Positions 1 to 11,064 of a stretch of DNA of 11,064 bases are shown in pieces. Both the position numbers and the translations under genes were made by a program. Numbering within the stretch: the first letter of the stretch is position 1; every line of letters begins with the position of its first letter. The DNA lies in UHGV virus genome UHGV-1652352; one strand, 5' to 3'. The notes beneath the pieces are model-generated. The model saw only the letters and a list, made by a program, of their open reading frames with translations, was not told the DNA's origin and did no database searches. This stretch comes from a virus.

Positions 1-92
1 ATCCAGTGGTCATAGCAGTCGCTGATGTTCTCGGCTTCGATAACTCTGTTGAATGGTTCTCCATTCCATTCACCTGTAACTCGGAAGTGCAT
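1..92 (-). CDS. hypothetical protein, 5' part only (runs off the window start)
   Basis: Minus-strand ATG at 92..90 opens a frame (MHFRVTGEWNGEPFNRVIEAENISDCYDHW...) that continues to position 1. No clear SD. It overlaps plus-strand track ORF 25..360, which I judge spurious. Confidence 0.2.
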   Translation of the reverse strand, partial: MHFRVTGEWNGEPFNRVIEAENISDCYDHW

Positions 93-103
93 TTATCATC
101 GCC

Positions 104-130
104 ATAAAACAAAACTCGCCGTAGCGAGTT
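104..130 (-). terminator. candidate intrinsic terminator downstream of the ASCH-like gene
   Basis: On the minus strand: 7-bp stem AACTCGC / GCGAGTT with 4-nt loop (113..130), followed by a U-rich run TTTTGTTTTAT (RC of 104..114). Confidence 0.35.
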
Positions 131-164
131 CAGATAAAAGAAATCCCCGCGAGTGCGAGGATTG

Positions 165-449
165 TTATTCATTGCCGATATTCACTTTTATCGCGAACAC
201 CTTTACCGGTTTATCACCGAAGTGCGGATGTGTGATTGTCTTGATTTCATATCCGTCATACGGGACGTCAATTCTGCGGCTGGAATCGTCGCGCTTCGGA
301 TATCCCTTTGTGATAATCAGGCGGTCATATTCCCGGAACATAATTCGCTTATTCCAGTAGTCATTACACAGGCGATACTCTTCCGTTTTCTCTCCGCGAA
401 TCATGGCATCGAAGTATTCACCTTTGACAGCAAGTTGCAGGTTAGCCAC
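165..449 (-). CDS. ASCH-domain-like protein (94 aa)
   Basis: Track ORF 165..449. GTG start at 449..447 preceded by GGAGG with a 6-nt spacer. Contains a GxKxxExR motif (RGEKTEEYR) typical of ASCH domains. Its start overlaps the stop of the upstream Ea22-like gene. Confidence 0.55.
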   Translation of the reverse strand: MANLQLAVKGEYFDAMIRGEKTEEYRLCNDYWNKRIMFREYDRLIITKGYPKRDDSSRRIDVPYDGYEIKTITHPHFGDKPVKVFAIKVNIGNE

Positions 450-1239
450 GGTTAACCTCCAGTTGTGGTGCTGCTTCTATAGCAGCCCTGTAACCAGCAG
501 CATGACCGCGAAAGTTAGCAATCTCTGATAGCCACGCTTTAATCATGGCCTGAGTTGGCTCCTTCGGCACCATAACCCAACCATCCGGAGTTACCGGAGA
601 GTTGCCAGCCTGAACAGTAGGCATATCAGGACCTTTGCGAATCGCCCTGGCAAGATCGATTGGGTCGTCGTACAACCAGTCACCTGTTTGCGGATGATTG
701 GCTTCTGCCAATTGTGCAGCCCACTCCAGGCCGTCTTTGTGTCCTTGAAGATAGTCCAGCGGCAACTCATCATGTTCACTTACAGGTTCGGCCCCATGAA
801 GCATAGCGGCGCGGCATGCGTTCCAGCCTTGAGCCTTAGCTATTGCCACAACTGCATCGGTAAAGAACATTCTCGTGGTATCTGGCTCCGGCATTTCATC
901 CGGCACCGCTTGCTGCGTTAACCGTGGAGCCGTCAGCGACTCCAATTCAGCAATCCGCTTCTCTGCTGCTTCCAGTTCATCAAGTAGCGCCAGCACGGTA
1001 GCTGGACTGGCTGCGGCGATGAATTCAGCATTGGCCTGCTGTTCCATTTGGAAATCTTCATCGAAGCCGCTTTCTGGATGCGCTCCTTCAATTCTGCAAA
1101 TGGGAATATATCCAGCAATTTCACGATGAATTAGCGCATCATCACAATCAAATCGGCTCTCTCCATATTCGAGCGACCACACCCCACACGTTGCTTTTTC
1201 TGCCTTAGCACGCAGTGCCTGATAGTCAATTTCGCTCAC
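442..1239 (-). CDS. Ead/Ea22-like lambdoid early protein (265 aa from the GTG start)
   Basis: Track ORF 442..1260. I place the start at GTG 1239..1237 because AAGGAGG sits 6 nt upstream and the product then begins [16 protein letters not shown], as I recall for Ea22-like proteins. This start overlaps the stop of the upstream small ORF (GTGA). Confidence 0.7.
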
Positions 1240-1403
1240 TGTTTGCCTCCTTTGCGCCACATCGCATTCAGATATTTGTTTTGATTCACTGATGGAAAAG
1301 AATTTCTCTTAAGCAATTCCTCTCTCGATGGCATTGGCTTTACGCGTTGGCGAATAATCATTTCTGCCGGAAGAATGCCGGGATTGTATGCAAGTCCTCT
1401 CAT
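1236..1403 (-). CDS. small hypothetical protein (55 aa)
   Basis: Downstream part of track ORF 1236..1553. Internal ATG at 1403..1401 is preceded by GAGGA with a 7-nt spacer. Its stop overlaps the Ea22-like start. The longer 105-aa version would overlap the 97-aa gene in another frame. Confidence 0.35.
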
Positions 1404-1413
1404 GGTAAATTCC

Positions 1414-1707
1414 TCAGTCATTACTGATAGCGCCATAGCGTGATCGATAATTACGCAGGCGCGGGTCAATTTCAGGGAAGTGGGTATATGTGGCTTTGCG
1501 GAACGGTCGGATTGATGTCTGGTAAATTCGCTCGCGTTCTTCTTTCTCTGCAAGCCATATACAATGACGAAATTCCTTTTCCTCTTTCGTTTCCTGCGGT
1601 AGCGACATTATCAGGTCATAGTTTTTTCTGAATTTATCCAGCACCTCCGATACGGAATTGCCGGAACAGCGGCGCGGGTCATCCGCACCATACTGAGGCG
1701 CTGGCAT
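1414..1707 (-). CDS. hypothetical protein (97 aa)
   Basis: Track ORF 1414..1707. ATG at 1707 is preceded by AGGAG with a 6-nt spacer, immediately after the SSB stop. Confidence 0.55.
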
Positions 1708-1720
1708 GATTTTCTCCTGA

Positions 1721-2227
1721 TTAAATTGCGTGAATAGCGTGACGAGGGAAGGGGAGAGTTACTGGTGCAAAGGGTATATCGTCGTCAAAATCCATCGGAG
1801 GTTCGTTGTGTTGTGCTGGTGATGATTGCTGCTGTGGCTTCTGTGATTGCCTGCTGGCTGCTTGTTGTTTGCTGTCGCCAATGCCGCCAAGCATCTGCAT
1901 CACGCCATTAATTCCGACATGAACCTCGGTTGTGTAACGGTCTTGCCCTGACTGGTCTTTCCACTTTCTGGTTCTCAGCATTCCCTCGAAATAAATCTGA
2001 TCACCTTTTTTCACATACTGCCCCACGACCTCAGCCAGTTTCCCGGATACAGCAACACGATGCCATTCAGTCAATTCCTTTTGCTCGCCAGTATTTTTAT
2101 CTCGCCATTGTTCTGACGTGGCTATTGTCAGGTTAGCGAACGCTGTTCCTGATGGTGAGTATCGAACTTCCGGGTCTTGTCCTACCCGACCAAGGATAAT
2201 CACCTTATTTACGCCTCTGCTTGCCAT
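1721..2227 (-). CDS. ssb: single-stranded DNA-binding protein with a C-terminal extension past the DDDIPF tip
   Basis: Track ORF 1721..2227. N-terminus [23 protein letters not shown] and the ...TEWHRV..., ...[11 protein letters not shown]... blocks match the SSB OB-fold. The acidic tail [10 protein letters not shown] is present but followed by 15 more residues ([15 protein letters not shown]) before TAA. Confidence 0.9.
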
Positions 2228-2935
2228 TTATGCCGCCTGTTTTAGTTCGTTAACTCTGATGTTCATTATCTGAACGCATTTAGCCTGCGCCTCCTCGTTG
2301 CCAGCCATTAATTGCCAGTCACGCTGATAACGCTCGATGAGTTTTTTCTTGTCAGTTTCTGTTGACGCATAATCGCTGAAGTCTTTCAGGATTTGTTCGC
2401 AGTCAACCGATGGAGATTTCTGGTTGGTATTTTCTGGTGATGGTTTGTTATCTGATGCTGGGATTGCCCATCCCGGAAGCGATGGAGGGAGCCAGTAAAA
2501 TCCTGTTCCATCCTTCAGTTTTGCCCTGTGCCACCCCTGCTTTTTATCGAGAGATGTTTGTGCGAAACCTTCCTCAAGGTTATACAGATACCGACCGATT
2601 CCCCACTGAACGGCAGCGCGCTTCATTGCACCGGAACGACCACCTTTGACGGCTTCTACCTGCGTGTTTTCAGCAGCATCCCATTTGGTTACCCATTCGG
2701 AATCAATCTTTATTGATATGCCGCATTCAACGCCGCCGTTGTTGGGAATATCGCGGTATTCATTGCGCCATCCTGCTTTGCCGCAAACATCGTCCAGGCG
2801 TTTCATGATTGCCCGGTTCGTGACATAAGCCAGCACCATAGCCCACACCTTGCCATCGCGTGTTTTACCGCTTTGCTGTATTCGCCATTCGATATCTTCA
2901 GGGCTGAATGGCTCATCGAATTTGTTCAAATCCAT
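2228..2935 (-). CDS. single-strand annealing protein, Rad52/Sak- or Erf-like recombinase (235 aa)
   Basis: Track ORF 2228..2935. SD GAGGTG 5 nt before the ATG. Sits directly upstream of ssb (stop and start adjacent, TAAATG), the usual annealing-protein + SSB arrangement. Family assignment is from recollection, not a search. Confidence 0.7.
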   Translation of the reverse strand: MDLNKFDEPFSPEDIEWRIQQSGKTRDGKVWAMVLAYVTNRAIMKRLDDVCGKAGWRNEYRDIPNNGGVECGISIKIDSEWVTKWDAAENTQVEAVKGGRSGAMKRAAVQWGIGRYLYNLEEGFAQTSLDKKQGWHRAKLKDGTGFYWLPPSLPGWAIPASDNKPSPENTNQKSPSVDCEQILKDFSDYASTETDKKKLIERYQRDWQLMAGNEEAQAKCVQIMNIRVNELKQAA

Positions 2936-2943
2936 AATTCACC

Positions 2944-3114
2944 TCAGAATGGACAATGCCCAAGGAAATAACGCTGATTTAATACTTCGACTCGGGACAA
3001 ATTAAGGCATACCCGCATTCCTTCGCGGTCACCATTATGGCGATACCAGAGAGCTTTCTGCGTGTACATGCGTCTCTGTAACTTGCTCTCCTTCACTGTG
3101 GTTGCAAGTGACAT
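2944..3114 (-). CDS. small hypothetical ORF (56 aa), alternative to 3035..3193
   Basis: Not in the track (below its length cutoff). ATG 3114..3112 is preceded by AAGGAG with a 6-nt spacer; stop at 2946..2944. Overlaps 3035..3193 by about 80 nt in another frame, so probably only one of the two is real. Confidence 0.3.
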   Translation of the reverse strand: MSLATTVKESKLQRRMYTQKALWYRHNGDREGMRVCLNLSRVEVLNQRYFLGHCPF

Positions 3115-3193
3115 GAATATCTCCTTCGTTACCGATTAATTCTTTCATCTGACGAATGAATTCTTCGTCTGACCAGTTATCTGTAAAACTCAT
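3035..3193 (-). CDS. small hypothetical ORF (52 aa)
   Basis: ATG 3193..3191 overlaps the TGA of the upstream 50-aa ORF (ATGA). Product MSFTDNWSDEEFIRQMKELIGNEGDIHVTCNHSEGEQVTETHVHAESSLVSP. Weak SD (AGGAA immediately adjacent). Confidence 0.3.
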   Translation of the reverse strand: MSFTDNWSDEEFIRQMKELIGNEGDIHVTCNHSEGEQVTETHVHAESSLVSP

Positions 3194-3342
3194 TTCCTGC
3201 GATACCACGGAAGGTTGATAGCTGATTTCATCGCTTTATTTGCTTCAAGCCACATTTTTGAATCACCAATAAATCTGGCTATTACTGCTTTGTTTTGTGC
3301 CGCACGAAGCATCTGGTGATTGATGGCTATTTCATTGCGCAT
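3190..3342 (-). CDS. small hypothetical ORF (50 aa)
   Basis: ATG 3342..3340 is preceded by GGAGG with a 4-nt spacer and overlaps the end of the cIII-like gene. Product MRNEIAINHQMLRAAQNKAVIARFIGDSKMWLEANKAMKSAINLPWYRRK. Confidence 0.4.
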   Translation of the reverse strand: MRNEIAINHQMLRAAQNKAVIARFIGDSKMWLEANKAMKSAINLPWYRRK

Positions 3343-3461
3343 AACGCCTCCAGTTGTTTCTTTGCTGCTCTGATTAATTGTTTAACTCGGCGTGATAATT
3401 CAGATTCGTGCGGGTAGAAAGCGGACATGACGCCGCTACCCGCGAGCTGAAAGTGCATCAT
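3327..3461 (-). CDS. cIII: cIII-like small protein (44 aa), putative FtsH-inhibitor peptide
   Basis: Tandem ATG at 3461..3456 preceded by AAGGAG with a 6-nt spacer. Product MMHFQLAGSGVMSAFYPHESELSRRVKQLIRAAKKQLEALCAMK has the P-x-ES-x-L-x-R...L-R helix pattern I recall from lambda CIII (PSESLLERITRKLRDGW). The longer track ORF (start 3566) would run through a terminator hairpin. Confidence 0.5.
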   Translation of the reverse strand: MMHFQLAGSGVMSAFYPHESELSRRVKQLIRAAKKQLEALCAMK

Positions 3462-3523
3462 GGGTAACTCCTTATATTTGATTGCATAACGAAAACGCCT
3501 CGAGTGAAGCGTTATTGGTATGC

Positions 3524-3551
3524 ATATAAAAAAGCCCTCACACTGGAGGGC
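3524..3551 (-). terminator. candidate intrinsic terminator within the pL operon
   Basis: On the minus strand: GC-rich 6-bp stem GCCCTC / GAGGGC with 6-nt loop (3534..3551), followed directly by TTTTTTATAT (RC of 3524..3533). Confidence 0.5.
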
Positions 3552-3604
3552 AAAGAAGATTTCCAATAATCAGAACAAGTCGGCTCCTGTTTAGTTACGA
3601 GCGA

Positions 3605-3650
3605 CACTGCTCCGTGTATTCACTCGTTGGAATGAATACACAGTGCAGTG
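3605..3650. repeat. 18-bp imperfect inverted repeat with 10-bp spacer
   Basis: Left arm CACTGCTCCGTGTATTCA (3605..3622) versus the reverse complement of the right arm TGAATACACAGTGCAGTG (3633..3650): 16 of 18 positions match. Spacer CTCGTTGGAA. Intergenic, between the 80-aa gene and the cIII-like gene. Confidence 0.45.
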
Positions 3651-3679
3651 TTTATTCTGTTGCTTATTCCAAAGCAAAT

Positions 3680-3922
3680 TTAACCATCAACAAACTCTTC
3701 TGGTAATTTATCAACCAGTTGATGACTTATTATCAGCCATTTGCCATCCTTCGTTTCGTATGCATATTTCTGGTCTTTTATCATCATGTGTTCGGCTACT
3801 GCCCTAACTGCCTGATCGGTGACATCTTCTCTCTTTCCTACCCACATTCCTTTTTCAGTGTTTAATGTTCCTTGAAAAATACGACCGCTTAATGGGCTTG
3901 CGCCCATAGTTTTTACTCTCAT
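3680..3922 (-). CDS. hypothetical early protein (80 aa)
   Basis: Track ORF 3680..3922. Weak SD (GAGAG). Position corresponds to the N-to-cIII accessory slot of lambda (ral/sieB/ea10 region), but I see no sequence resemblance to those. Confidence 0.5.
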   Translation of the reverse strand: MRVKTMGASPLSGRIFQGTLNTEKGMWVGKREDVTDQAVRAVAEHMMIKDQKYAYETKDGKWLIISHQLVDKLPEEFVDG

Positions 3923-3986
3923 GTATCAGCTCTCAAATAAGTGGTTTGCTGCCAAAACAATGAACCATCCGGAAATTCCAGATAGT

Positions 3987-4211
3987 TCATAATTCACTCT
4001 TCAATACTTCCAACTTACTAATCGCCGATAGATATCCGCGCTGATAGGGCATCATCATTCCTTCGAGCTTGCCACTTCTTAACTCCTCCCTGAGCAATTG
4101 TATTGCTTGATCAATAACCTCTGACTTAGCGTCCTTTATGGCTTGCTTGCGGGGCTTTGCTTTCTGCTTTGGCAGATTTCTCAAGCATGATGGAATGTAT
4201 GTCTGATTCAT
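3987..4211 (-). CDS. hypothetical early protein (74 aa)
   Basis: Track ORF 3987..4214. The GTG at 4214 abuts the N stop; the ATG at 4211..4209 with GAGGT 5 nt upstream is the likely start. Confidence 0.5.
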   Translation of the reverse strand: MNQTYIPSCLRNLPKQKAKPRKQAIKDAKSEVIDQAIQLLREELRSGKLEGMMMPYQRGYLSAISKLEVLKSEL

Positions 4212-4214
4212 CAC

Positions 4215-4487
4215 TTACCTCGCTGTCAGTTGTTTTGATTTCCGGTATCCTGCCGCGTAAAGAGCTACGTTTGGCAGGCAAATACTTCCACTGCGTTCAT
4301 CTTCTTCCTTACAGCGAAGGCTTCCGAGTGATGCTGCTTTATCTGCTCTGACGCAACCAGAGAGCTTTAGCGCAATTTTTCGCGCCAGTGCTTCATTACT
4401 GCGTCGCTCGGCAATAAGTTCTGCTCTGCGAGCTTTGTAGCGGCTTTTTGCCGTACCTTTGGATTCTTTCCAGACAATGGTTACCAT
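4215..4487 (-). CDS. N: antitermination protein N-like (P22 gp24-like, 90 aa)
   Basis: Within track ORF 4215..4517; start ATG 4487..4485 with AAGGAG and 6-nt spacer. Arginine-rich N-terminal motif (GTAKSRYKARRAELIAERR) and a C-terminus LPNVALYAAGYRKSKQLTAR that matches my recollection of P22 gp24. Lies downstream of a nut site and candidate pL. Confidence 0.75.
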   Translation of the reverse strand: MVTIVWKESKGTAKSRYKARRAELIAERRSNEALARKIALKLSGCVRADKAASLGSLRCKEEDERSGSICLPNVALYAAGYRKSKQLTAR

Positions 4488-4597
4488 GATGGTCTCCTTT
4501 AAGTGGCTTTGGCGCATGACGCGTCGAGGTGCTTATCTTCTCGATCGCTGTCTTGCAGCTGCAATTCGCGCCATCCCCAAAACCACTCAAGTTCTGG

Positions 4598-4638
4598 TCT
4601 CAACGGTTAGGTTGAGAGTCCGTCGATGTTAAAGAGCC
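4598..4638 (-). promoter_or_regulatory. nutL: nutL-like site (boxA + boxB hairpin)
   Basis: Minus strand reads GGCTCTTTAACA (boxA-like, RC of 4627..4638), 9-nt spacer, then hairpin TCTCAAC-CTAACC-GTTGAGA (4598..4617). Same architecture and same CUAACC loop as the nutR candidate. Confidence 0.6.
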
Positions 4639-4685
4639 TGCCAATCTGTTCCTTGTGGCGTCTCAGCGTCCTGCTGATGGAAATG

Positions 4686-4747
4686 ATAGTCACATATTGT
4701 GATTTAATGGTCAATCACAAAATGTGTAAAATAAAGGTGTGACACGT
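4686..4747 (-). promoter_or_regulatory. candidate pL promoter(s) with oL operator palindromes
   Basis: Operator-like palindromes TCACA-TAT-TGTGA (4690..4702) and TCACA-AAA-TGTGT (4715..4727), plus a GTGTGACACG element (4737..4746). Two candidate leftward sigma-70 promoters overlap them: TTTACA (RC 4725..4730), 17 nt, TTAAAT (RC 4702..4707); or TTGACC (RC 4709..4714), 17 nt, GACTAT. Confidence 0.5.
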
Positions 4748-4963
4748 TATGTGTATGATTTTTTTGTGTAAATAGTTTTACCCGCGATGGTTTTGCTTAC
4801 TTAAGTCGGTGGCAACAGCAGGATGGGTGCTGAAAAGTTCGAAAAACGAGCGAAGGGGGGGTGGCGAGATGGCGGGATATGGGAGTTGTATTAAGAATTA
4901 TAGTAATTTAATCAATAGTTTGGACCGGCGGGCAGGTGCTGTCCTGATAGTGATCGGCGGGCA

Positions 4964-4990
4964 ATAAAAAACCCGGCTCGGTGGCCGGGT
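4964..4990 (-). terminator. intrinsic terminator ending the cI-side cassette
   Basis: Minus strand: stop of the 310-aa gene (4999..4997), then hairpin CCCGGC-CACCGA-GCCGGG (RC of 4972..4989), then TTTTTTATT. Textbook stem plus U-tract. Confidence 0.65.
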
Positions 4991-4996
4991 GAGATA

Positions 4997-5929
4997 TTAA
5001 AGAACCGATTTAACAAGATGGTTTTTACGGTACAGACCTATGCGATCATTGTGAATCTCAGTAGTCTCCACTAAAAGAGAAACAATCTGTCCGACCTTGT
5101 GTTTTTTTTGTATTAAATCTAGCATTTCAATCGGATAGGAAGCCTTTAAATGTTCACCACCAACATCAAGCTCCAGCTTCCCATATTTGGATAGAACGAC
5201 CAGTTCGCCTGTAACCGTTTCAGTAATGGGAGGGGATGAAATGGTTGATGTAAGTCTACTCACCAAGTACTTAATTTTATTGGAGTCAATAGTTGCCACC
5301 TTGGTGCCATTACTAAATGGACCGGTCCAACTTGCATCAAATGTTAAGTTGTGTTTATCGCATTCCTCTACGATTCTCTTAAGGCTTACAGTGGAATTGT
5401 ATCCAATTTCAGCGACGTGATTCATGAAGTTGTTGTCGTCATCGCTTAACAACAAATCGAATATGCCTTTTACAGCCTTGCTGGGTACTGTTTCTACTAA
5501 TTCTGCTATTCCTGTAGAGAAGGTGACGCCCAATTTTGTAGACCCAGGGGATAAATCAGCCAGCCTGAGGTTTAAGGAGCTTTTCACGTCGTAGGGAACT
5601 TTTTTTGAGTCCTTGCCTGAGGCAATTTTGTGTGTTGCTCTTTGTATTAGCGCTGCAAGATTTGTTGAAATAGCCCCAAGCAGCTCTAAAGGAATAGAGC
5701 CAAAGTCAACCTCAGAGCCTTTCAGCCGCAGCTCAAAAAAATCGATAAGTGGGTGCCGACTATCTTGCTTTAATTTTTCGGCCTTCAAATCGCTCAGATG
5801 AGAATCCATGGAGCGATAAAGAAGCATGTCAGCAAAGGACCTGGTTTTGTTTTGCTTCATTGCATCGACTTCTTTTTGAATGAAATCAATGCGTTTATCG
5901 CAATTTTTAAACATTGATTTATCATTCAT
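4997..5929 (-). CDS. hypothetical protein (310 aa), partner of the nucleotidyltransferase-like gene; candidate effector
   Basis: Track ORF 4997..5929. ATG 5929..5927 overlaps the TGA of the upstream gene (ATGA), with GAGGA 7 nt upstream. AT-rich by eye. No Walker motif, transmembrane segment or other motif I can recognise. Confidence 0.8.
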   Translation of the reverse strand: MNDKSMFKNCDKRIDFIQKEVDAMKQNKTRSFADMLLYRSMDSHLSDLKAEKLKQDSRHPLIDFFELRLKGSEVDFGSIPLELLGAISTNLAALIQRATHKIASGKDSKKVPYDVKSSLNLRLADLSPGSTKLGVTFSTGIAELVETVPSKAVKGIFDLLLSDDDNNFMNHVAEIGYNSTVSLKRIVEECDKHNLTFDASWTGPFSNGTKVATIDSNKIKYLVSRLTSTISSPPITETVTGELVVLSKYGKLELDVGGEHLKASYPIEMLDLIQKKHKVGQIVSLLVETTEIHNDRIGLYRKNHLVKSVL

Positions 5930-6405
5930 AAAAAAATCCTCACTAACCCTTTCGGGTTTTCACTGCGATCAAAACCAAACCAACCGCGCCAGTAGCTACG
6001 CCAGTACTCATAATCATAGTTAGGGTCATCTAAATTCTTCATGAGTAGTAGGACATCAATTTTGTAGTTTTGTTTGATGTAGTTTCGGTCAAGCAAATTA
6101 TCGACGCGGCCCCGAAGCATGACAGGTATTGAGTTTATATTGCTATAGTCACATACCAACAAAATATCAATATCATCAGGCTCTGGTTTAGACGTGGTGT
6201 ATGAACCATCAACCCATATTTCTGTAAAACAGCCATATTGAGCAGATAATTCTCGAATAGATTCGAGTAGCTGTATAAAATTACAGTATAGCATGCCTCG
6301 CCTGGATGATGAAGGAAAGCAATCGACACAATACGATTTTAATCCAGCTTCATCCATGTCATGGAACCCTGGCTCAAACAGGGGTGGGTAATTAATTTTA
6401 TCCAT
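5926..6405 (-). CDS. minimal nucleotidyltransferase (Pol-beta fold, MNT-like) domain protein (159 aa)
   Basis: Track ORF 5926..6405. AAGG about 6 nt upstream of ATG 6405. Carries the NTase signature h-G-S-x(9-13)-D-h-D-h: VDGSYTTSKPEPDDIDILLV, close to the GSxARG...SDxDLLV pattern of MNT-type enzymes. Confidence 0.8.
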   Translation of the reverse strand: MDKINYPPLFEPGFHDMDEAGLKSYCVDCFPSSSRRGMLYCNFIQLLESIRELSAQYGCFTEIWVDGSYTTSKPEPDDIDILLVCDYSNINSIPVMLRGRVDNLLDRNYIKQNYKIDVLLLMKNLDDPNYDYEYWRSYWRGWFGFDRSENPKGLVRIFL

Positions 6406-6440
6406 AAAAAACCTTGCTATACATTTGTTTTTTTATTAAA

Positions 6441-6468
6441 AATCTAACCACCGAAATGGTGACGGCAA
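6441..6468 (-). promoter_or_regulatory. candidate promoter for the two-gene cassette
   Basis: In the 148-bp AT-rich gap between cI and the NTase-like gene, minus strand reads TTGCCG (RC 6463..6468), 16 nt, TAGATT (RC 6441..6446), about 40 nt upstream of the ATG. A weak match, by eye only. Confidence 0.25.
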
Positions 6469-6553
6469 GATGTTACATGGGGTTACAATCAGCCAATACA
6501 CCGCATTAAATAATTTTTTCACCAGCTATGCGCCGACCAGAACACCTTGCCCA

Positions 6554-7201
6554 TCACCCAAACGTCTCTTCAGGCCACTGCGCCTTAACTACCTTGCCTA
6601 TGATGCGGCAGCTATGGTCGCAATCCAGGGTTCTATATGCCGGGTTTAAAGGTACCAGGTAACTAACCCCTGCATCCTTCTCATACTTCTTGAACGTTGC
6701 CTCTGAATCACCATTTGCAGAAGCCACGCAGAAATCCCCAGACTCTACCGGCTCAGCCGGATCAACGAGTATCAGCATGCCTTCCGGAAAACTTGGACGA
6801 ACCCCCTGAGGCGCCGTCATTGAATGCCCCTTCACCTCAAGCCAGAAAGCTTTTTCGCTGGCTTTTGTGGTCGTTGGGACCCATGCCTTTGCATCGCTGG
6901 CTGTGTAGCTTCCCACCTCCGAAAATGGCCCGGCCTGCACTGAAGAAAATAACGGGTATTCATATTGGCGAAATACGGCGTCTGAATCCTCGCCAAACAT
7001 TATTTTTGCCGGAGATACGCCGAGTGCCGCCCCAAGAACCAGCGCGTCATCCGCGCTAACCTTTCTTGTTCCTAACTCGTAGTTCCCCAGGCGTGAAGGC
7101 GCAGCCCAGCCGCAAAGCTTGGCCAATTGAGCCTGGCTAAGTCCTTTAGCTTCTCTAAGGGACTTGATCCTTTCCCCGATAATTTCATGCATCGTTTTCA
7201 T
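6554..7201 (-). CDS. cI: CI-type prophage repressor (HTH-XRE + S24 LexA-like peptidase domain)
   Basis: Track ORF 6554..7201. N-terminal HTH ([24 protein letters not shown]), Ala-Gly cleavage site (VQAGPF), Ser-Lys dyad (GHSM ... FKKYEKD). Divergent from cro across an operator region. The start could instead be the ATG at 7192. Confidence 0.9.
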
Positions 7202-7309
7202 CCCTTAAATGTAACACGCAACGTGATTGAACTCTGTACACGAATTGAGGTTGACTGTTAATCACAAATTGTGTGTAATGGGTGTGTGATTAATACTAGG
7301 GAGACCGCA
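7202..7309. promoter_or_regulatory. oR operator region with pR and probable pRM
   Basis: Candidate pR on plus strand: TTGACT (7251..7256), 17 nt, TGTAAT (7274..7279). Operator-like palindromes ACACG-CAA-CGTGA (7214..7226) and TCACA-AAT-TGTGT (7262..7274), plus a TGTGA half-site (7286..7290); same family as oL. pRM not pinned down. Confidence 0.6.
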
Positions 7310-7528
7310 ATGAACAAAATTGCCCAGCAGCGAAAAAAAATCGGAGTTTCGCAAGCTGTACTAGCTTCGGCAATTGGTTGGGGGCAATCCCGCATCGCCA
7401 ACTATGAGCTGAATATCCGTACTCCTGGCCTTAACGATTGCCGAATGATCGTAGAAGGCCTCAGGAAGTTAGGGTGCCAATGTTCTTTGGATGATGTTTT
7501 CCCTCCATCCAGTAACAAAGCCGCCTAA
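7310..7528 (+). CDS. cro: Cro-type repressor (HTH-XRE, 72 aa)
   Basis: ATG 7310 preceded by AGGGAG (6-nt spacer), inside track ORF 7271..7528. HTH (VSQAVLASAIGWGQSRIANYELN) resembles the cI HTH. First gene downstream of pR. Confidence 0.8.
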   Translation: MNKIAQQRKKIGVSQAVLASAIGWGQSRIANYELNIRTPGLNDCRMIVEGLRKLGCQCSLDDVFPPSSNKAA

Positions 7529-7536
7529 GCAGTACC

Positions 7537-7577
7537 CGCTCTTTAACAGTCATGGCCTTTCACCTCTAACCGGGTGA
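7537..7577 (+). promoter_or_regulatory. nutR: nutR-like site (boxA + boxB hairpin)
   Basis: boxA CGCTCTTTAACA (7537..7548), 11-nt spacer, hairpin TCACCT-CTAACC-GGGTGA (7560..7577; one G-U pair). Loop identical to the nutL candidate. Confidence 0.65.
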
Positions 7578-7645
7578 GCAAACATCAGCGGCAAATCCAT
7601 TGGGTGTGCCGCTATAACTCAATATCAATATAGGAAAATTAACAA

Positions 7646-7942
7646 ATGACACAAGCAAGTTACAGCAAGCCAACACAGCGAGAAATTGATCGCGCTGAAA
7701 CTGATTTACTCATCAACCTGTCAACGCTTACCCAGCGCGGTCTGGCAAAGATGATTGGCTGTCATGAATCGAAGATAAGCAGAACGGACTGGAGATTTAT
7801 TGCTTCGGTCTTGTGTGCTTTCGGAATGGCATCAGACATCAGTCCGATTAGCAGGGCTTTTAAGTATGCGCTTGATGAAATCACAAAGAAAAAATCCCCG
7901 GCTGCCACCGAGGATTTTAAGCAAATTGATATGCAATTCTGA
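7646..7942 (+). CDS. cII: CII-like transcriptional activator (98 aa)
   Basis: Track ORF 7646..7942. C-terminus [18 protein letters not shown] parallels lambda CII (KKRPAATERSEQIQMEF); HTH-like block [12 protein letters not shown]. Position after cro and nutR. Confidence 0.85.
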
Positions 7943-7974
7943 GGGAATTACTGGATCAATCCACAGGAGTAATT

Positions 7975-8121
7975 ATGACAAAACAACTCAGTCCTTACCA
8001 GGACAAAATTCACAAACACATACTACGTGATCGCTTCCTGTCCAGCTTCAAGCAGCCTGGTCGATTCCGGTCTGAGTTGGAAAAAGTGAAGCTGATGCAG
8101 AAGGAGAAAGGTCATGAGTAA
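7975..8121 (+). CDS. small hypothetical ORF (48 aa) between cII and O
   Basis: ATG 7975 preceded by AGGAG with a 5-nt spacer. Stop TAA 8119..8121 overlaps the start of O by 8 nt. Product [48 protein letters not shown]. Confidence 0.4.
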
Positions 8122-8974
8122 TATTGCAACCGTAACACATTTAAGGCCTTCACAACGGCCTGTGGAGCGTCGTGTGGCAGAAGTTGAAGATGGTTATACC
8201 CGTCTTGCAAATGCCCTGTATGAAGAGCTTATCGGCGCAGATTTAACGAAAAATCAGAGCAAGGTTGCCCACGCCATATGCCGTAAAACATACGGCTACG
8301 GTAAAAAGATGGATCGCATCTCTGATAGTCAGTTAGCTCAAATTACCAGGCTGCCAAGACAGAAGGTAAACAAGGCCAAGAATGAGCTTATCGCGATGAA
8401 GGTTATCCTTCGCGAAGGCCAGCAAATCGGGCCTAACAAGAACATCGAGGAATGGCAAATCGAAGGGTGTCACTACTCTGGTGATAATGTCACTGCATTG
8501 GTGACAAAAAGTGTCACCAAAACGGTGACAGCGCTGTCACCAAAACAGGGACACACAAAAGAAACTATTACAAAAGAAAAAAGAAATAATAAAAACACTA
8601 TGTCCGAAAGTGTTCGGACGGAGTGTGAAAAATCACCTGACCGTCACGAAGAAACCGACAAGGCATTCGAGGAAATATTCTGGTGTGCAGGCATGCGGAA
8701 AGCCGGGAAGAAAAACGCAGCTTCGGCATTCAGAACACAGTTCAGGGAATGGCGTAAAACTACCAGGGGTACGGCAAGCGAGTTTGCCACGATGCTGGCA
8801 GAAGACATCGCATGCAGGAATGGTAAGCAGTTCGGATTCGACAGGTTGTTACCATCGAGCTACCTGAACGGTCAGCGCTGGAACGACGAGAAGCCAGAAA
8901 CCATTCAACCACAATCCAAACCATCATCCGCAATCACCGTATCGAAAACTGGCTACGTGTTTTTCGACAGGTGA
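8114..8974 (+). CDS. O: replication initiator O-like protein (lambda O N-terminal domain, divergent C-terminal domain)
   Basis: Track ORF 8114..8974, AAGGAG SD. N-terminal blocks [50 protein letters not shown] and PNKNIEEW match my recollection of lambda O. The C-terminal third does not resemble the lambda O P-binding domain. Confidence 0.85.
8467..8619. repeat. candidate origin inside O: iterons, AT-rich tract, palindrome
   Basis: Palindromic iterons GGTGACA-N-TGTCACC at 8500..8518 and 8524..8541, with degenerate copies at 8467..8494. Then an A-rich tract (8553..8600), then 7-bp-arm palindrome GTCCGAA-AGTG-TTCGGAC (8602..8619). Same layout as ori-lambda in the middle of O. Confidence 0.6.
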
Positions 8975-8977
8975 ACC

Positions 8978-9085
8978 ATGAAATCAAAAATCAAATCGCT
9001 ACTGGTCGCTGGTTATAACCACGGCTGGTTAAGTATTTCGTTTGTCGATTTCTGGTTTAAAAATCTCAATCTGAGGGAATCATGA
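8978..9085 (+). CDS. small hypothetical ORF (35 aa), translationally coupled to primase-helicase
   Basis: ATG 8978 with AGGTG 4 nt upstream; stop TGA 9083..9085 overlaps the primase-helicase ATG (ATGA). Product MKSKIKSLLVAGYNHGWLSISFVDFWFKNLNLRES. Confidence 0.3.
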   Translation: MKSKIKSLLVAGYNHGWLSISFVDFWFKNLNLRES

Positions 9086-10962
9086 CGCCAAGTGAACTCA
9101 GTGACCTGCTTTGGGCGCAGGTTGACAGGGTGGCTCCGCACCTGTTGCCAAACGGCAAGAAAGAGGGGCATGAGTGGGTTGCCGGTAACGTCAACGGTGA
9201 CAAGGGAAACAGCCTTAAGGTCAACCTTAGCGGCAAGAAAAAATGGGCTGATTTCGCTGAGGGAGACGGCGGTGACATGCTTGATTTGTGGATGGCATGT
9301 CGTGGAATTAACCTGCATCAGGCTATGCAGGAAGCGAAAGCCTTTCTCGGAATCAAGGATGACGATCACCATTTCGATGCCAAACGTGAGAAGAAATTCT
9401 CCAGACCTGACCGCAAGAAAATCGCCCGCTACGTTACCAGAACAGAATCCCATCTTGAGTACCTGCAATCGCGTGGCATATCGCCAGAAGTCGTAAAGCG
9501 CTACGAGGTTGTCAGCGGCAAGGTGTGGAATGGAGAACGGGAACTGGATGCTCTGGTGATTCCGTACAAACGCGATGGTGAGTTGTTGCAGGTCAAGCGA
9601 ATCAGCACTGAGCGCCCGGACGGGAAGAAAGTCATTATGGCAGAAGGTGATTGCGAACCTTGTCTGTTCGGATGGCAGGCTCTGGACGCTGGCGTGAGGG
9701 CGGTTGTACTTTGCGAAGGCGAAATTGATTGTATGAGCTATGCGCAATATGGCATCTCGGCGTTATCCGTGCCGTTTGGTGGCGGGAAAGGCGCTAAACA
9801 GCAGTGGATTGAGTTTGAGTATCACAACCTCGACAGGTTTGAGGAAATATTCATCTCGATGGACGTTGATGATGTTGGTCGTGAAGCCGCAAGGGAAATC
9901 GCAAGCCGACTCGGTGAACATCGTTGCCGTCTTGTTACTCTGCCGTACAAAGACATCAACGAATGCCTGATGAACGGTGTTACCGAGGATGAAATCTGGC
10001 AGTACATCGGCACGGCATCCTACTTCGATCCTGAAGAACTCTACAGTGCGCGAGAGTTTTACCAGGACACTATCAACGCTTTCTACGGCAAGCAGCAGTA
10101 TCTGTTTAATCCACTGTGGGAATCTCTGGCAGATAAATTCCAGTTCCGTGAGGCAGAGTTGACGCTGGTCAATGGTGTGAACGGTCACGGAAAAACGGAG
10201 GTTGTAGGGCATATGGCACTTGAGGCAATGCGTCAGGGTGTGAAGACGTGCATCGCGTCACTTGAGCTGAAGCCAGGCATTCTCCTTAAGCGACTTACCC
10301 GTCAGGCGACGTGCTGCAAGATGCCGCCAGTGCTGGAAATTGACTCTGCATTTAAATTTTATGACGAAAGACTTTGGGTGTTTGGCCTGACCGGAACGGC
10401 GAAAGCCGACAGGCTGATCGAAATATTCGACTACGCTCGCCGCCGATACGGCATCCAGTTATTCATCATCGACAGCCTGATGAAATGTGGCATAGGCGAC
10501 GATGACTATAACGGGCAGAAGGCGTTTGTTGACTCGATTTGCGATTTCAAAAACAAAACAAACTCCCACGTCATTCTCGTTACTCACTCGCGAAAAGGTG
10601 ACAGCGAAGAAAAACCAACCGGGAAAATGGACGTAAAAGGATCTGGAGCGATAACAGACCTGACAGACAACCTTTTCATCATCTGGCGTAACAAGGCTCG
10701 CGAGAGAGCGTTACAGAGAGTTCAGAGTGGTGAAAAGATGTCAGAGAAGGACGAACAGCTACTGGCATCTCCGGCATCTGTTTTGATGCTTGAAAAGCAA
10801 CGTAACGGCGAAGGTTGGGAAGGTGGTGTCCCGTTGTTCCTTGACGAGCAATCGCACCAGTTCCTGCAACTTGAATCAGGATCGCCTTATAGCTACATCG
10901 CCAATATGCCGAAATCGGAATATGACGAGGCGTGGCGACAGGAAAACGTGACGGAGTATTAA
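9082..10962 (+). CDS. bifunctional DNA primase / replicative helicase (toprim + DnaB/T7-gp4-like helicase, 626 aa)
   Basis: Track ORF 9082..10962. Toprim motifs (VVLCEGEIDCMSY ... ISMDVDDVGREAA). Walker A GVNGHGKT and Walker B LFIIDSLMK in the C-terminal half. Occupies the position of lambda P. Confidence 0.85.
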   Translation: MTPSELSDLLWAQVDRVAPHLLPNGKKEGHEWVAGNVNGDKGNSLKVNLSGKKKWADFAEGDGGDMLDLWMACRGINLHQAMQEAKAFLGIKDDDHHFDAKREKKFSRPDRKKIARYVTRTESHLEYLQSRGISPEVVKRYEVVSGKVWNGERELDALVIPYKRDGELLQVKRISTERPDGKKVIMAEGDCEPCLFGWQALDAGVRAVVLCEGEIDCMSYAQYGISALSVPFGGGKGAKQQWIEFEYHNLDRFEEIFISMDVDDVGREAAREIASRLGEHRCRLVTLPYKDINECLMNGVTEDEIWQYIGTASYFDPEELYSAREFYQDTINAFYGKQQYLFNPLWESLADKFQFREAELTLVNGVNGHGKTEVVGHMALEAMRQGVKTCIASLELKPGILLKRLTRQATCCKMPPVLEIDSAFKFYDERLWVFGLTGTAKADRLIEIFDYARRRYGIQLFIIDSLMKCGIGDDDYNGQKAFVDSICDFKNKTNSHVILVTHSRKGDSEEKPTGKMDVKGSGAITDLTDNLFIIWRNKARERALQRVQSGEKMSEKDEQLLASPASVLMLEKQRNGEGWEGGVPLFLDEQSHQFLQLESGSPYSYIANMPKSEYDEAWRQENVTEY

Positions 10963-10991
10963 ATGACCATCTACATCACTGAGCTTGTAAC

Positions 10992-11023
10992 AGGCCTGCT
11001 GGTAATCGCAGGCCTTTTTATTT
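10992..11023 (+). terminator. tR2-like intrinsic terminator
   Basis: 8-bp stem AGGCCTGC / GCAGGCCT with loop TGGTAATC (10992..11015), then TTTTTATTT (11016..11023). Sits between the replication gene and ninB, as tR2 does in lambda. Confidence 0.65.
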
Positions 11024-11039
11024 GGGGGAGAGGGAAGTC

Positions 11040-11064
11040 ATGAAAAAACTAACCTTTGAAATTC
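11040..11064 (+). CDS. ninB: NinB-like protein, first 8 codons only (runs off the window end)
   Basis: ATG 11040 preceded by GGGAAG; the product begins MKKLTFEI, matching the lambda NinB N-terminus as I recall it. Confidence 0.5.

What the first reader, a model, noticed from the sequence alone, without database searches (positions are those of the whole stretch)
4997..5929. 310-aa partner protein with no recognisable motif; candidate effector or toxin
This protein is translationally coupled to the NTase-like gene but shows no Walker motif, no transmembrane segment, and no nuclease or protease signature that I can read. There is an R-x4-H sequence near the N-terminus (RSMDSH), but in an atypical position for a HEPN RNase, so I do not rely on it. 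A small NTase followed by a larger partner is reminiscent of toxin-antitoxin or sensor-effector logic, but assigning either role here is speculation.
Basis: inference. Interest (0 to 1): 0.65.

Follow-up and report, generated by a model that had tools for sequence, protein, structure and literature searches.

The report
Prophage NTase partner with OB fold
The 310-aa protein is the large subunit of an untested two-gene candidate anti-phage system (PADLOC PDC-M63) carried in the rexAB-equivalent slot of a lambda-like prophage; it has a nucleic-acid-binding-type OB fold and is more likely the sensor or regulator of its nucleotidyltransferase partner than a toxin.

Summary
The ORF is real: minus strand 4997-5929, 310 aa, with its ATG overlapping the stop of an upstream 159-aa Pol-beta-type nucleotidyltransferase (A, DUF6932; catalytic GS...DxD...D intact). 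The pair is a 1.5-kb exchangeable cassette (4989-6520) between cI and the PRM-transcript terminator of a lambdoid prophage 99.5% identical to phage mEpX1. That is the slot rexAB holds in lambda and bstA in BTP1.

Both proteins match the PADLOC candidate PDC-M63 (A 2e-41, B 8e-45). That candidate was predicted by embedding in RM/BREX loci and has never been shown to defend; one deletion test against 10 virulent phages was negative.

A and B were adjacent in 15/15 other loci. These lie after prophage repressors or beside Type I RM, a NACHT protein or a Type ISP RM-like gene.

B is remotely homologous to PDC-M02B, whose small partner is a DUF4365 nuclease. This suggests a shared large sensor/regulator with swappable small enzymes. 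The effector/toxin reading remains possible. Already catalogued, mechanistically unknown, readily testable.

The parts
4997..5929 (-). Gene B: 310-aa protein (34.5 kDa, pI 8.3); PDC-M63B, phrog_6603; no Pfam domain
   Evidence: ORF; PADLOC 7.5e-45; PHROG 3.4e-147; 268 family clusters; AF2 model pLDDT 81.5, pTM 0.71
5759..5929 (-). B residues 1-57: N-terminal antiparallel helical hairpin (helices 10-25 and 32-56), probably for oligomerisation; contains the non-conserved RSMDSH (residues 39-44)
   Evidence: Secondary structure of the model; only weak coiled-coil-type PDB sequence hits; RSMDSH conservation
5489..5758 (-). B residues 58-147: the most conserved core (beta1-alpha1-beta2-GS hairpin-beta3), with E63, E66, R68, G77, P80-L81, G105, R122, G129-S130; possibly ferredoxin/palm-like
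   Evidence: Conservation; aligns with the PDC-M02B core by hhalign and with PDC-M32A; weak cyclase, Cas10 and Thg1 fold hits
5540..5545 (-). Codons GGG TCT for Gly129-Ser130. Ser130 is invariant in 134 diverse members and Gly129 is kept in 99%. The hairpin sits in the least confident (probably flexible) stretch of the model
   Evidence: conservation; pLDDT 53-66 for residues 121-150; aligned with the invariant G156 and nearly invariant S157 of PDC-M02B; sequence read
5234..5488 (-). B residues 148-232: three-helix subdomain plus a beta-hairpin carrying the nearly invariant W201
5000..5233 (-). B residues 233-310: C-terminal OB fold (beta1-beta2-beta3-alpha-beta4-beta5)
5926..6405 (-). Gene A: 159-aa minimal Pol-beta-type nucleotidyltransferase (DUF6932, PDC-M63A; 18.8 kDa, pI 4.7). 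Catalytic G67-S68, D78-x-D80 and D117 intact. Invariant C-terminal RSYWRGWFGFxRxExPKG motif (5947-6000)
   Evidence: Pfam 1.7e-24; PADLOC 1.8e-41; invariant columns in 31 homologues; NTP_transf_2, Polbeta and DNA_pol_B_palm hits in 16-18 of 31 members
5926..5929 (-). ATGA: the start codon of B overlaps the stop codon of A (translational coupling)
   Evidence: an overlap of 4 or 14 nt in 13 of 15 other loci
4971..4990 (-). Intrinsic terminator directly after B (7-bp GC-rich stem plus U6). It belongs to the flank shared with VT1-Sakai, where it is annotated as the terminator of the PRM transcript
   Evidence: -13.9 kcal/mol, z -3.0; annotation; flank boundaries
4989..6520 (-). The exchangeable cassette: leader (6406-6520) plus A plus B. 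It is replaced in VT1-Sakai by an unrelated single gene (H0053), between flanks that are 98% identical
   Evidence: blastn of the window against L002
6554..7201 (-). cI repressor (HTH plus Peptidase_S24), directly upstream of the cassette and co-directional with it. Only a weak hairpin (6447-6466, -7.2 kcal/mol) lies between them
   Evidence: Pfam; annotation; hairpin
4598..4756 (-). nutL (about 4598-4638) and the OL/PL operators and promoter (about 4686-4756), downstream of the terminator. PL transcription therefore does not cover the pair
   Evidence: Coordinates transferred from the VT1-Sakai annotation through the 98% alignment; boxA annotation in mEpX1

Best explanation
The 310-aa protein (B) and the upstream minimal nucleotidyltransferase (A) form a two-gene accessory cassette. 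It is expressed in the lysogen from the cI (PRM/PRE) transcript and most likely acts against superinfecting phages, either by exclusion or by abortive infection. Within the pair, B is most likely the sensing and regulatory subunit. It would be an oligomer built on the N-terminal helical hairpin, whose variable C-terminal OB fold recognises an infection cue. The cue would most plausibly be single-stranded nucleic acid or a phage protein that handles it. B's conserved core, around the invariant Gly129-Ser130 hairpin, would contact and control the small enzyme. A, with an intact Pol-beta active site, would then be the catalytic output, nucleotidylylating a cellular or phage target in the way NTase toxins of the MenT/AbiEii kind do. 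Shown: gene structure, coupling, strict co-inheritance, cassette position, family membership (PDC-M63), the OB fold, intact NTase motifs, and remote homology of B to PDC-M02B. Inferred: expression from PRM, the defence function, the sensor/effector assignment, the ligand and the target.
For: Position: the cassette 4989-6520 lies between cI and the PRM-transcript terminator, and VT1-Sakai carries an unrelated gene between identical flanks. This cI-N region is a documented mosaic hotspot holding rexAB and bstA (PMC8585504). Only a weak hairpin separates cI from A, and a strong terminator follows B.

The same placement, directly after a co-directional HTH-S24 or CI-type repressor, recurs in unrelated prophages: L005-L009 and L013.

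Other members sit beside Type I RM plus YoeB/YefM (L014), a NACHT STAND protein (L018), and a Type ISP RM-like gene in a prophage (L019). The family was picked as PDC-M63 because members are embedded in BREX, DISARM or RM loci.

A and B were adjacent in 15/15 other loci, overlapping in 13, with correlated divergence, rho 0.63.

A keeps G67-S68, D78, D80 and D117.

For B as the sensor/regulator: B diverges faster than A in 112/120 matched comparisons. Its OB domain and hairpin vary most, and its core least. B is homologous to PDC-M02B (hhalign 84%, E 7e-6, 194 columns, GS hairpins aligned; Foldseek E 5e-8; 10/134 members hit M02B HMMs). The small upstream partner of PDC-M02B is a DUF4365 protein, and DUF4365 is the effector nuclease domain of SPARDA systems (PMC10810196).
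Against: No member of PDC-M63 has been shown to defend. Deleting PDC-M63AB from E. coli NILS69 changed nothing for 10 virulent dsDNA phages.

Expression from PRM is inferred from anatomy, not measured.

The M02B relationship is remote: 84% probability, and not detected with a single sequence. The argument from swappable partners can be read the other way, with a conserved effector and variable regulators.

The operon order, small NTase first, and A's affinity to PF01909 resemble MNT-HEPN, where the NTase is the antitoxin.

The OB domain has no conserved basic patch: net charge about 0, with only two aromatic positions and one basic position conserved. Nucleic-acid binding is therefore not assured.

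The invariant core residues (E63, E66, R68, R122, S130) look like an active or ligand-binding site, which would suit an enzyme as well as an interface.
Confidence: 0.4

Rival explanations
1. One reading: B is the toxin or effector, and the NTase A is its enzymatic antitoxin or guard. Either A covalently nucleotidylylates B, as MntA poly-AMPylates the HepT toxin in type VII TA systems; here the invariant, flexible Ser130 would be the acceptor. Or A makes a short oligonucleotide that B's OB fold holds, keeping B off until a phage nuclease or SSB removes it, as in Hailong (HalB poly-dA and HalA).
For: The operon order and sizes match MNT-HEPN: a small NTase upstream, a larger partner downstream, translationally coupled. 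A hits the MNT-containing family PF01909 in 16/31 members. MntA neutralises HepT by adenylylation (PMC7641770). Hailong shows that an NTase can be the negative regulator through a DNA signal (review PMC13434031). B has a 100% invariant Ser in a low-confidence, probably flexible hairpin, and an oligonucleotide-binding-type fold. In this phage, A is acidic (pI 4.7) and B is basic (pI 8.3).
Against: B has no HEPN motif or fold, no TM segment, and no nuclease, protease or NADase signature, so no killing activity can be named. The basic charge of B is not conserved in the family; median net charge is slightly negative. The homologous PDC-M02B pairs with a DUF4365 nuclease, which is hard to read as an antitoxin. 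B evolves faster than A, which is unusual for a catalytic effector.
Confidence: 0.28
2. The pair is not an anti-phage system. It could be a toxin-antitoxin-type addiction module that stabilises the prophage and other mobile elements. It could be a lysogen-expressed modifier of host physiology. Or it could be a counter-defence device of mobile elements.
For: The only functional test found no defence. The pair also occurs in a mobile element among methylase, Lar-like anti-restriction and RadC genes (L016/L017), and in chromosomal sites with no defence neighbours (L010, L015). It sits beside a YoeB/YefM TA pair in L014. Tight coupling and overlap are typical of TA modules.
Against: The pair recurs in the repressor-downstream slot that holds known exclusion systems. 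It neighbours RM, NACHT and Type ISP genes. It was selected by embedding in BREX, DISARM or RM loci. These contexts do not separate defence from addiction cleanly, and many TA modules also defend.
Confidence: 0.17
3. B is a phage housekeeping protein, an SSB-like or RuvA-like replication or recombination accessory, and the OB fold reflects that role.
For: The top structural neighbours of the C-terminal domain are SSBs, RuvA domain I, RPA and PriB.
Against: The similarity is at fold level over about 70 residues, with 7-20% identity. There is no sequence relationship to any solved protein. The window already encodes an SSB (1721-2227) and a recombinase in the PL operon. B lies outside the PL and PR lytic operons, behind cI. 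The cassette is absent from phages with the same immunity region. It occurs in only 18 of 5426 complete E. coli genomes, and also in non-phage loci.
Confidence: 0.03

Closest known systems
PADLOC phage defence candidate PDC-M63 (A+B), Payne et al., bioRxiv 10.1101/2024.01.29.577857
   Same: Both proteins match the PDC-M63 HMMs over their full length (A 1.8e-41, B 7.5e-45). All 134 diverse B homologues and all 31 A homologues match too. Gene order and adjacency are the same.
   Different: Nothing differs: this is a member. But PDC-M63 is only a computational candidate, with no mechanism and no positive phenotype. The single deletion test was negative.
PDC-M02 (DUF4365 nuclease-like A plus ~380-aa B) and PDC-M32A, other untested PADLOC candidates
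   Same: The large subunits share B's conserved core, including the GS hairpin and the GSIPL motif (hhalign 84%, E 7e-6). The overall multi-domain fold is also shared (Foldseek E 5e-8 to LE1-0037). 41/134 B members hit M32A and 10/134 hit M02B. The operon layout is the same: a small enzyme upstream, the large protein downstream.
   Different: The small partner is a DUF4365 PD-(D/E)xK-type nuclease rather than an NTase. The large subunit is about 70 residues longer. Sequence identity is in the noise for single sequences.
MNT-HEPN (MntA-HepT) type VII toxin-antitoxin systems (PMC7641770)
   Same: A small Pol-beta-type minimal NTase is encoded first, with a larger partner translationally coupled behind it. 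A hits PF01909 in half of its family. These systems are frequent on mobile elements.
   Different: B is not HEPN. The Rx4-6H pair is kept in only 10% of members. B has an alpha/beta plus OB architecture, not an all-alpha one. There is no recurrent HEPN Pfam hit. A belongs to its own family, DUF6932, with a unique invariant C-terminal motif.
Lambda RexAB and Salmonella BTP1 BstA (prophage exclusion / abortive infection genes downstream of cI; PMC8585504)
   Same: The genomic slot and presumed expression are identical: after the repressor gene, before OL/PL and N, ending in an intrinsic terminator.
   Different: There is no sequence or domain relationship. There is no membrane protein like RexB, no KilA-N domain like BstA's, and no PADLOC hit to either.
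Hailong (HalA ion channel plus HalB NTase; Tan et al. 2025, as summarised in PMC13434031)
   Same: A two-gene system in which a template-independent NTase regulates a partner that binds an oligonucleotide. B's OB fold would suit such a ligand.
   Different: The Hailong effector is a transmembrane channel, and B is soluble. No PADLOC Hailong hit. Oligonucleotide synthesis by A is untested.
AbiE / MenAT (DUF1814 NTase toxins)
   Same: An NTase acts as the toxic output of a two-gene abortive-infection or TA module. This is the role proposed for A in the best explanation.
   Different: Those toxins are about 280-300-aa DUF1814 proteins encoded downstream of a wHTH or MenA antitoxin. A is 159 aa, DUF6932, encoded upstream, and shows no PADLOC AbiE hit.

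Membership tests
PADLOC PDC-M63 | The large subunit matches a PDC-M63B HMM | tested here: met
   7.5e-45 over residues 23-304; six M63B models hit
PADLOC PDC-M63 | The small subunit matches a PDC-M63A HMM and is adjacent on the same strand | tested here: met
   1.8e-41 over residues 1-158; 4-nt overlap
PADLOC PDC-M63 | Anti-phage activity | not testable with these tools
   Never demonstrated. The NILS69 deletion gave no phenotype with 10 virulent phages
HEPN RNase (toxin of MNT-HEPN) | A conserved Rx4-6H catalytic motif | tested here: not met
   The only occurrence is RSMDSH at residues 39-44. R is kept in 13%, H in 60%, both in 10% of 134 members
HEPN RNase (toxin of MNT-HEPN) | An all-alpha HEPN fold, or a HEPN profile match | tested here: not met
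   The model is a helical hairpin plus an alpha/beta core plus an OB fold. HEPN Pfam models hit 1 of 134 members each, at chance level
OB fold (SSB/RPA/RuvA-I type) | A five-stranded beta-barrel with a helix between strands 3 and 4 | tested here: met
OB fold (SSB/RPA/RuvA-I type) | Binding of single-stranded nucleic acid | not testable with these tools
   Only aromatic positions 265 and 304 and basic position 301 are conserved; net charge about 0
Pol-beta-type minimal nucleotidyltransferase (partner A) | hG[GS] x9-13 DxD plus a third carboxylate | tested here: met
   G67-S68, D78 and D80 are invariant and D117 is kept in at least 90% of 31 homologues. PF01909, PF18765 and PF14792 hits
B-like superfamily (PDC-M63B / M32A / M02B) | A shared core with an invariant Gly-Ser hairpin, and the same multi-domain fold | tested here: met
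   hhalign 84%, E 7.3e-6, 194 columns. Foldseek E 5e-8 and 1e-13. HMM cross-hits in 41 and 10 of 134 members. The relationship is remote, so membership is at superfamily level only
Palm / class III cyclase-like fold (B core) | A beta-alpha-beta-beta-alpha-beta core with catalytic carboxylates on beta1 and on the beta2-beta3 hairpin | tested here: inconclusive
   The order of secondary-structure elements fits. The hits to CyaC, Cas10, Cmr2, a uridylate cyclase and Thg1 are weak (E 0.013-0.3). The hairpin carries GS, not acidic residues
RexAB | RexA and RexB homologues, RexB being a polytopic membrane protein | tested here: not met
   No PADLOC hit and no TM segment in either protein. Only the genomic slot is shared
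CBASS | A CD-NTase (about 300-400 aa) plus an effector with a signal-sensing domain | tested here: not met
   A is 159 aa and matches only PDC-M63A in PADLOC. The only PDB hit to a CD-NTase has E 0.56
AbiE / MenT NTase toxins | A DUF1814 NTase with an upstream wHTH or MenA antitoxin | tested here: not met
   No Pfam or PADLOC match. Gene order is reversed
Hailong | A transmembrane HalA effector gated by NTase-made oligo-dA | tested here: not met
   B has no TM segment and there is no PADLOC hit. Oligonucleotide synthesis was not testable

The most novel reading that the evidence does not exclude
B-like proteins (PDC-M63B, M32A, M02B) are a new class of OB-fold infection sensors, built around an invariant Gly-Ser hairpin. 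They plug into interchangeable small enzymes: a minimal NTase here, a DUF4365 nuclease in PDC-M02. In this cassette, the DUF6932 NTase would be a new kind of nucleotidylylating effector, or would nucleotidylylate B's Ser130 as the on/off switch. That would make this a mechanistically new prophage immunity module occupying the rexAB slot.
Probability: 0.3. Interest if true: 0.75.

Novelty: new variant of a known kind. Interest (0 to 1): 0.5.

Why it matters
Prophage genes expressed with the repressor decide which other phages can grow on a lysogen. The cI-N slot has already given rexAB and bstA.

This cassette is a catalogued but untested candidate. It pairs an active-looking minimal NTase with an OB-fold protein that has no Pfam family.

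It sits in phage mEpX1, which grows on E. coli K-12, so deletion, toxicity and escape-mutant experiments are straightforward.

The link found here between PDC-M63B, PDC-M32A and PDC-M02B suggests one large sensor/regulator module serving several small enzymes. If confirmed, characterising one system would explain three candidate families at once.

It would also add a new role for NTases in immunity, beside CBASS, MNT-HEPN, AbiE/MenT and Hailong.

Tried and rejected
- **HEPN reading of RSMDSH:** rejected, because the motif is not conserved and the fold is wrong.
- **Sequence searches of B and of its 134-member profile against PDB chains:** only non-significant coiled-coil hits. The same for A: DNA pol beta palm at E 0.4.
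- **Pfam and NCBIfam for B:** nothing.
- **Rfam on the whole window:** nothing.
- **Truncated structure prediction of B residues 1-232, to search the non-OB part alone:** a poor model (pLDDT 67.8) that contradicts the full-length model at residues 58-130. It was not used for fold search.
- **AFDB50 Foldseek:** the library was unavailable.
- **Foldseek against the PDB:** no hit at E <= 0.001. The cyclase, Cas10 and Thg1 hints are kept only as inconclusive.
- **Search for a conserved promoter or operator upstream of gene A in eight Enterobacterales loci:** only a Shine-Dalgarno sequence is shared. The sigma-70 scan found nothing in the leader.
- **Which Vassallo PD system contains DUF6575:** could not be determined; the text and the held supplements do not say. 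No B-family member hits any validated PD-T4, PD-T7 or PD-lambda model in PADLOC.
- **Single-sequence hhalign of LE1-0037 against the B profile:** not significant. It became significant only with a 12-sequence profile.
- **Acidic antitoxin / basic toxin argument:** rejected, because B's charge is not conserved in the family.
- **Housekeeping SSB/RuvA role:** rejected on context.
Full report
**Observation.** The ORF exists as described, on the minus strand: 4997-5929, 310 aa. Its ATG overlaps the TGA of the upstream 159-aa gene (5926-6405) in ATGA, and a GAGGA lies 8 nt upstream. It is a real gene. A profile of 41 close homologues finds 268 clusters at 50% identity among 1.84 billion representatives. 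Nearly all are 300-320 aa and match end to end. It also matches phrog_6603 at 3e-147.

There is no Walker A or B motif, and maximum 19-residue hydropathy is 1.38, so there is no membrane segment. There is no Pfam or NCBIfam hit. RSMDSH is at residues 39-44, in the N-terminal helical hairpin. Arg and His are kept together in only 10% of 134 diverse members. HEPN is therefore excluded.

**Surroundings.** The window is a lambdoid early region:
- SSB and recombinase, then N (4215-4517, PF25694)
- nutL and OL/PL
- the pair
- cI (6554-7201, HTH plus S24)
- cro, cII, O, and a primase-helicase

Window bases 4600-6560, which span the pair and its flanks, are 99.5% identical to Escherichia phage mEpX1, where both genes are annotated "hypothetical".

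VT1-Sakai has 98% identical flanks (window 4219-4988 and 6521-7985) but carries one unrelated gene in between. The pair is therefore a 1.5-kb exchangeable cassette, 4989-6520.

The strong terminator right after B (4971-4990, -13.9 kcal/mol) belongs to the shared flank. In Sakai it is annotated as the terminator of the PRM transcript. The only hairpin between cI and A is weak. PL lies beyond the terminator. So the pair should be transcribed with cI in the lysogen and not from the lytic promoters. This is inferred, not measured.

This is the slot of rexAB in lambda and bstA in BTP1, a recognised mosaic hotspot (PMC8585504). This allele is rare: 18 of 5426 complete E. coli genomes, all chromosomal.

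**What the pair is.** Both proteins match the PADLOC candidate system PDC-M63 (A 1.8e-41, B 7.5e-45). PDC systems are untested candidates, chosen because members are nested inside BREX, DISARM or Type I RM loci. The one experiment found was negative. Deleting PDC-M63AB from E. coli NILS69 did not change the infectivity of 10 virulent phages.

A is a minimal Pol-beta-type nucleotidyltransferase (DUF6932, 1.7e-24). G67-S68, D78 and D80 are invariant, and D117 is nearly invariant. It also has a remarkable invariant C-terminal motif, RSYWRGWFGFxRxExPKG. Half of its family also hits PF01909, Polbeta or the pol beta palm. In PADLOC it hits nothing but PDC-M63A.

**Co-inheritance and context.** In 7 Enterobacterales genomes, and in 8 loci found through distant A homologues (35-45% identity), A is always immediately upstream of a B homologue. 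That is 15 of 15 loci, with a 4- or 14-nt overlap in 13. The divergences of A and B correlate (rho 0.63).

The contexts are as follows.
- Directly after a co-directional HTH-S24 or CI-type repressor, in unrelated prophages: L005-L009 and L013.
- In a prophage, between a Type ISP RM-like gene and the integrase: L019.
- Beside Type I RM and YoeB/YefM: L014.
- Beside a NACHT STAND protein: L018.
- Beside a DUF4011 helicase: L012.
- In a mobile element with methylase, Lar and RadC genes: L016/L017.
- In two chromosomal sites with no telling neighbours: L010 and L015.

**Anatomy of B.** The full-length AlphaFold model is good (pLDDT 81.5, pTM 0.71). It has four parts.
- **Residues 10-56:** a helical hairpin.
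- **Residues 58-147:** a beta-alpha-beta-beta unit.
- **Residues 148-232:** three helices and a beta-hairpin.
- **Residues 233-310:** a beta1-beta2-beta3-alpha-beta4-beta5 barrel.

Across 134 members (median about 23% identity), Ser130 is invariant. G129, W201, G77, G176, P80-L81 and G241 are kept in at least 90%. E63, R68 and R122 are kept in about 85-90%. The 58-147 core is the most conserved part (34% median pairwise identity). The hairpin, the helical subdomain and the OB domain are all at about 23%. The Gly-Ser hairpin falls in the least confident stretch of the model, pLDDT 53-66.

Foldseek against the PDB gives no significant hit. Weak matches to class III cyclases, Cas10/Cmr2 and Thg1 recur (E 0.013-0.3). 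The order of secondary-structure elements would fit a palm-like core. I treat this as inconclusive.

**Relatives of B.** Foldseek against viral models gives two significant multi-domain matches: a DUF6575 protein (E 1e-13) and Leptospira phage LE1 protein Q6NE06 (E 5e-8). I matched Q6NE06 to LE1-0037 by its length of 381 aa. LE1-0037 is PDC-M02B (1e-64). The gene just upstream, LE1-0038, is PDC-M02A, a DUF4365 protein.

A 12-sequence profile of the M02B family aligns with the B profile at 84% probability (E 7e-6) over 194 columns: B 59-252 against M02B 88-303. The GSIPL motif and the Gly-Ser hairpin are in register. Independently, 41 of 134 B members hit PDC-M32A HMMs and 10 hit PDC-M02B HMMs.

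DUF4365 is the effector nuclease domain of SPARDA short-Argonaute systems (PMC10810196). DUF6575 is listed among the domains of the 21 experimentally validated E. coli systems of Vassallo et al. (PMC9519451). I could not establish which system it belongs to. No B member hits those PADLOC models.

**Mechanism.** I commit to the following. The cassette is a lysogen-expressed two-gene module directed against superinfecting phages.
- B is the sensing and regulatory subunit. The hairpin drives oligomerisation. The variable OB fold recognises the cue, probably single-stranded nucleic acid or a phage protein that handles it. The conserved core is the contact or switch.
- A is the catalytic output, a nucleotidylylating enzyme.

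The reasons for this assignment are these.
- B-like proteins are the constant large partner of different small enzymes (an NTase, or a DUF4365 nuclease), and the nuclease is an effector-type domain.
- B diverges faster than A in 112 of 120 matched comparisons (43% against 26% median identity).
- B has no toxic-type domain.

The steps actually shown are gene structure, coupling, co-inheritance, cassette position, PDC-M63 membership, the OB fold, the intact NTase site, and the remote M02B homology. Everything about activity, ligand, target and phenotype is inferred.

**The main rival.** That could happen by nucleotidylylation, as MntA does to HepT (PMC7641770), with Ser130 as an obvious acceptor. 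Or it could happen through an NTase-made oligonucleotide held by the OB fold, as in Hailong (PMC13434031). The operon order and A's affinity to PF01909 favour this reading. The missing killing domain and the M02 analogy count against it.

A non-defence addiction or counter-defence role cannot be excluded, given the negative NILS69 result and the L016/L017 context. A housekeeping SSB/RuvA role is unlikely. The phage already has an SSB. The cassette lies outside the lytic operons. It is absent from phages with the same immunity region, and it occurs outside phages.

**Novelty and verdict.** The pair is already catalogued as an untested candidate, PDC-M63, so recognising it as a possible defence module is not new. 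It is not a member of any characterised system: tests for HEPN, RexAB, BstA, CBASS, AbiE/MenT and Hailong all fail.

In the library I could search, three points appear undescribed: the OB fold, the invariant Gly-Ser core, and the superfamily link to PDC-M02B and PDC-M32A with swappable small enzymes. I rate it a new variant of a known kind, the two-gene NTase-containing prophage conflict module.

Interest is moderate, 0.5. The mechanism is open. The phage is tractable in E. coli K-12. One characterisation could explain three candidate families. Against that, there is no positive phenotype and one negative test.

Noticed in passing
window 4219-4988 and 6521-7985, compared with L002 (VT1-Sakai): The immunity region (cI, cro, cII, OL/PL, OR, nutL, N) is 98% identical to that of the Stx1 phage VT1-Sakai. 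That phage carries a different, unannotated 183-aa gene (H0053; no Pfam hit) in the cI-downstream slot. H0053 is therefore another uncharacterised candidate moron in the same hotspot.
   Followed up: partly
window 1-4295 and 7986-11064: The window matches mEpX1 only over 4296-7985. Outside that range it is mosaic. The replication module here is an O-like protein plus a 626-aa primase-helicase (9082-10962), whereas mEpX1 has O plus DnaC. The gene left of N is a 75-aa phrog_5305 protein, where mEpX1 has Nun. So the window comes from a relative of mEpX1, probably one of the 17 E. coli prophages whose pair is 100% identical, and not from mEpX1 itself.
   Followed up: partly
window 5947-6000 (-), residues 136-153 of protein A: The NTase has an 18-residue aromatic- and Arg-rich C-terminal motif, RSYWRGWFGFxRxExPKG. 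It is almost invariant down to 35% overall identity and is more conserved than the catalytic region. It has no counterpart that I know of in MNT or other minimal NTases. It may be the substrate- or partner-binding element.
   Followed up: partly
window 6447-6466 (-): There is a weak hairpin followed by a poor U-tract in the cassette-specific leader between cI and gene A (-7.2 kcal/mol, z -1.6). A weak -35/-10-like pair (TTGCCG, 16 nt, TAGATT) overlaps it. It could attenuate read-through or add a minor promoter, as PLIT does for rexB, but it may be nothing.
   Followed up: partly
L020 (Leptospira phage LE1) 38735-40413 (-): The Leptospira plasmid-prophage LE1 carries a complete PDC-M02 pair: a DUF4365 nuclease-like gene plus a 381-aa B-like protein, annotated as hypothetical.
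   Followed up: yes
L010/L011 399-3626 and 4001-5372: In one environmental bacterium the A-B pair lies directly downstream of an imuB-dnaE2-type error-prone polymerase cassette and next to a DinB-family (DUF1572) gene. This could be coincidence or a link to DNA-damage or ssDNA biology.
   Followed up: no
window 3680-3922 (-) and 3987-4214 (-): Two small conserved phage genes of unknown function lie in the PL operon just after N: a DUF7446 protein (5e-29) and a phrog_5305 protein (8e-38).
   Followed up: no
window 9013-9747 (-): A 244-aa ORF lies antisense to the start of the primase-helicase gene. It is almost certainly a shadow ORF and not a gene.
   Followed up: no
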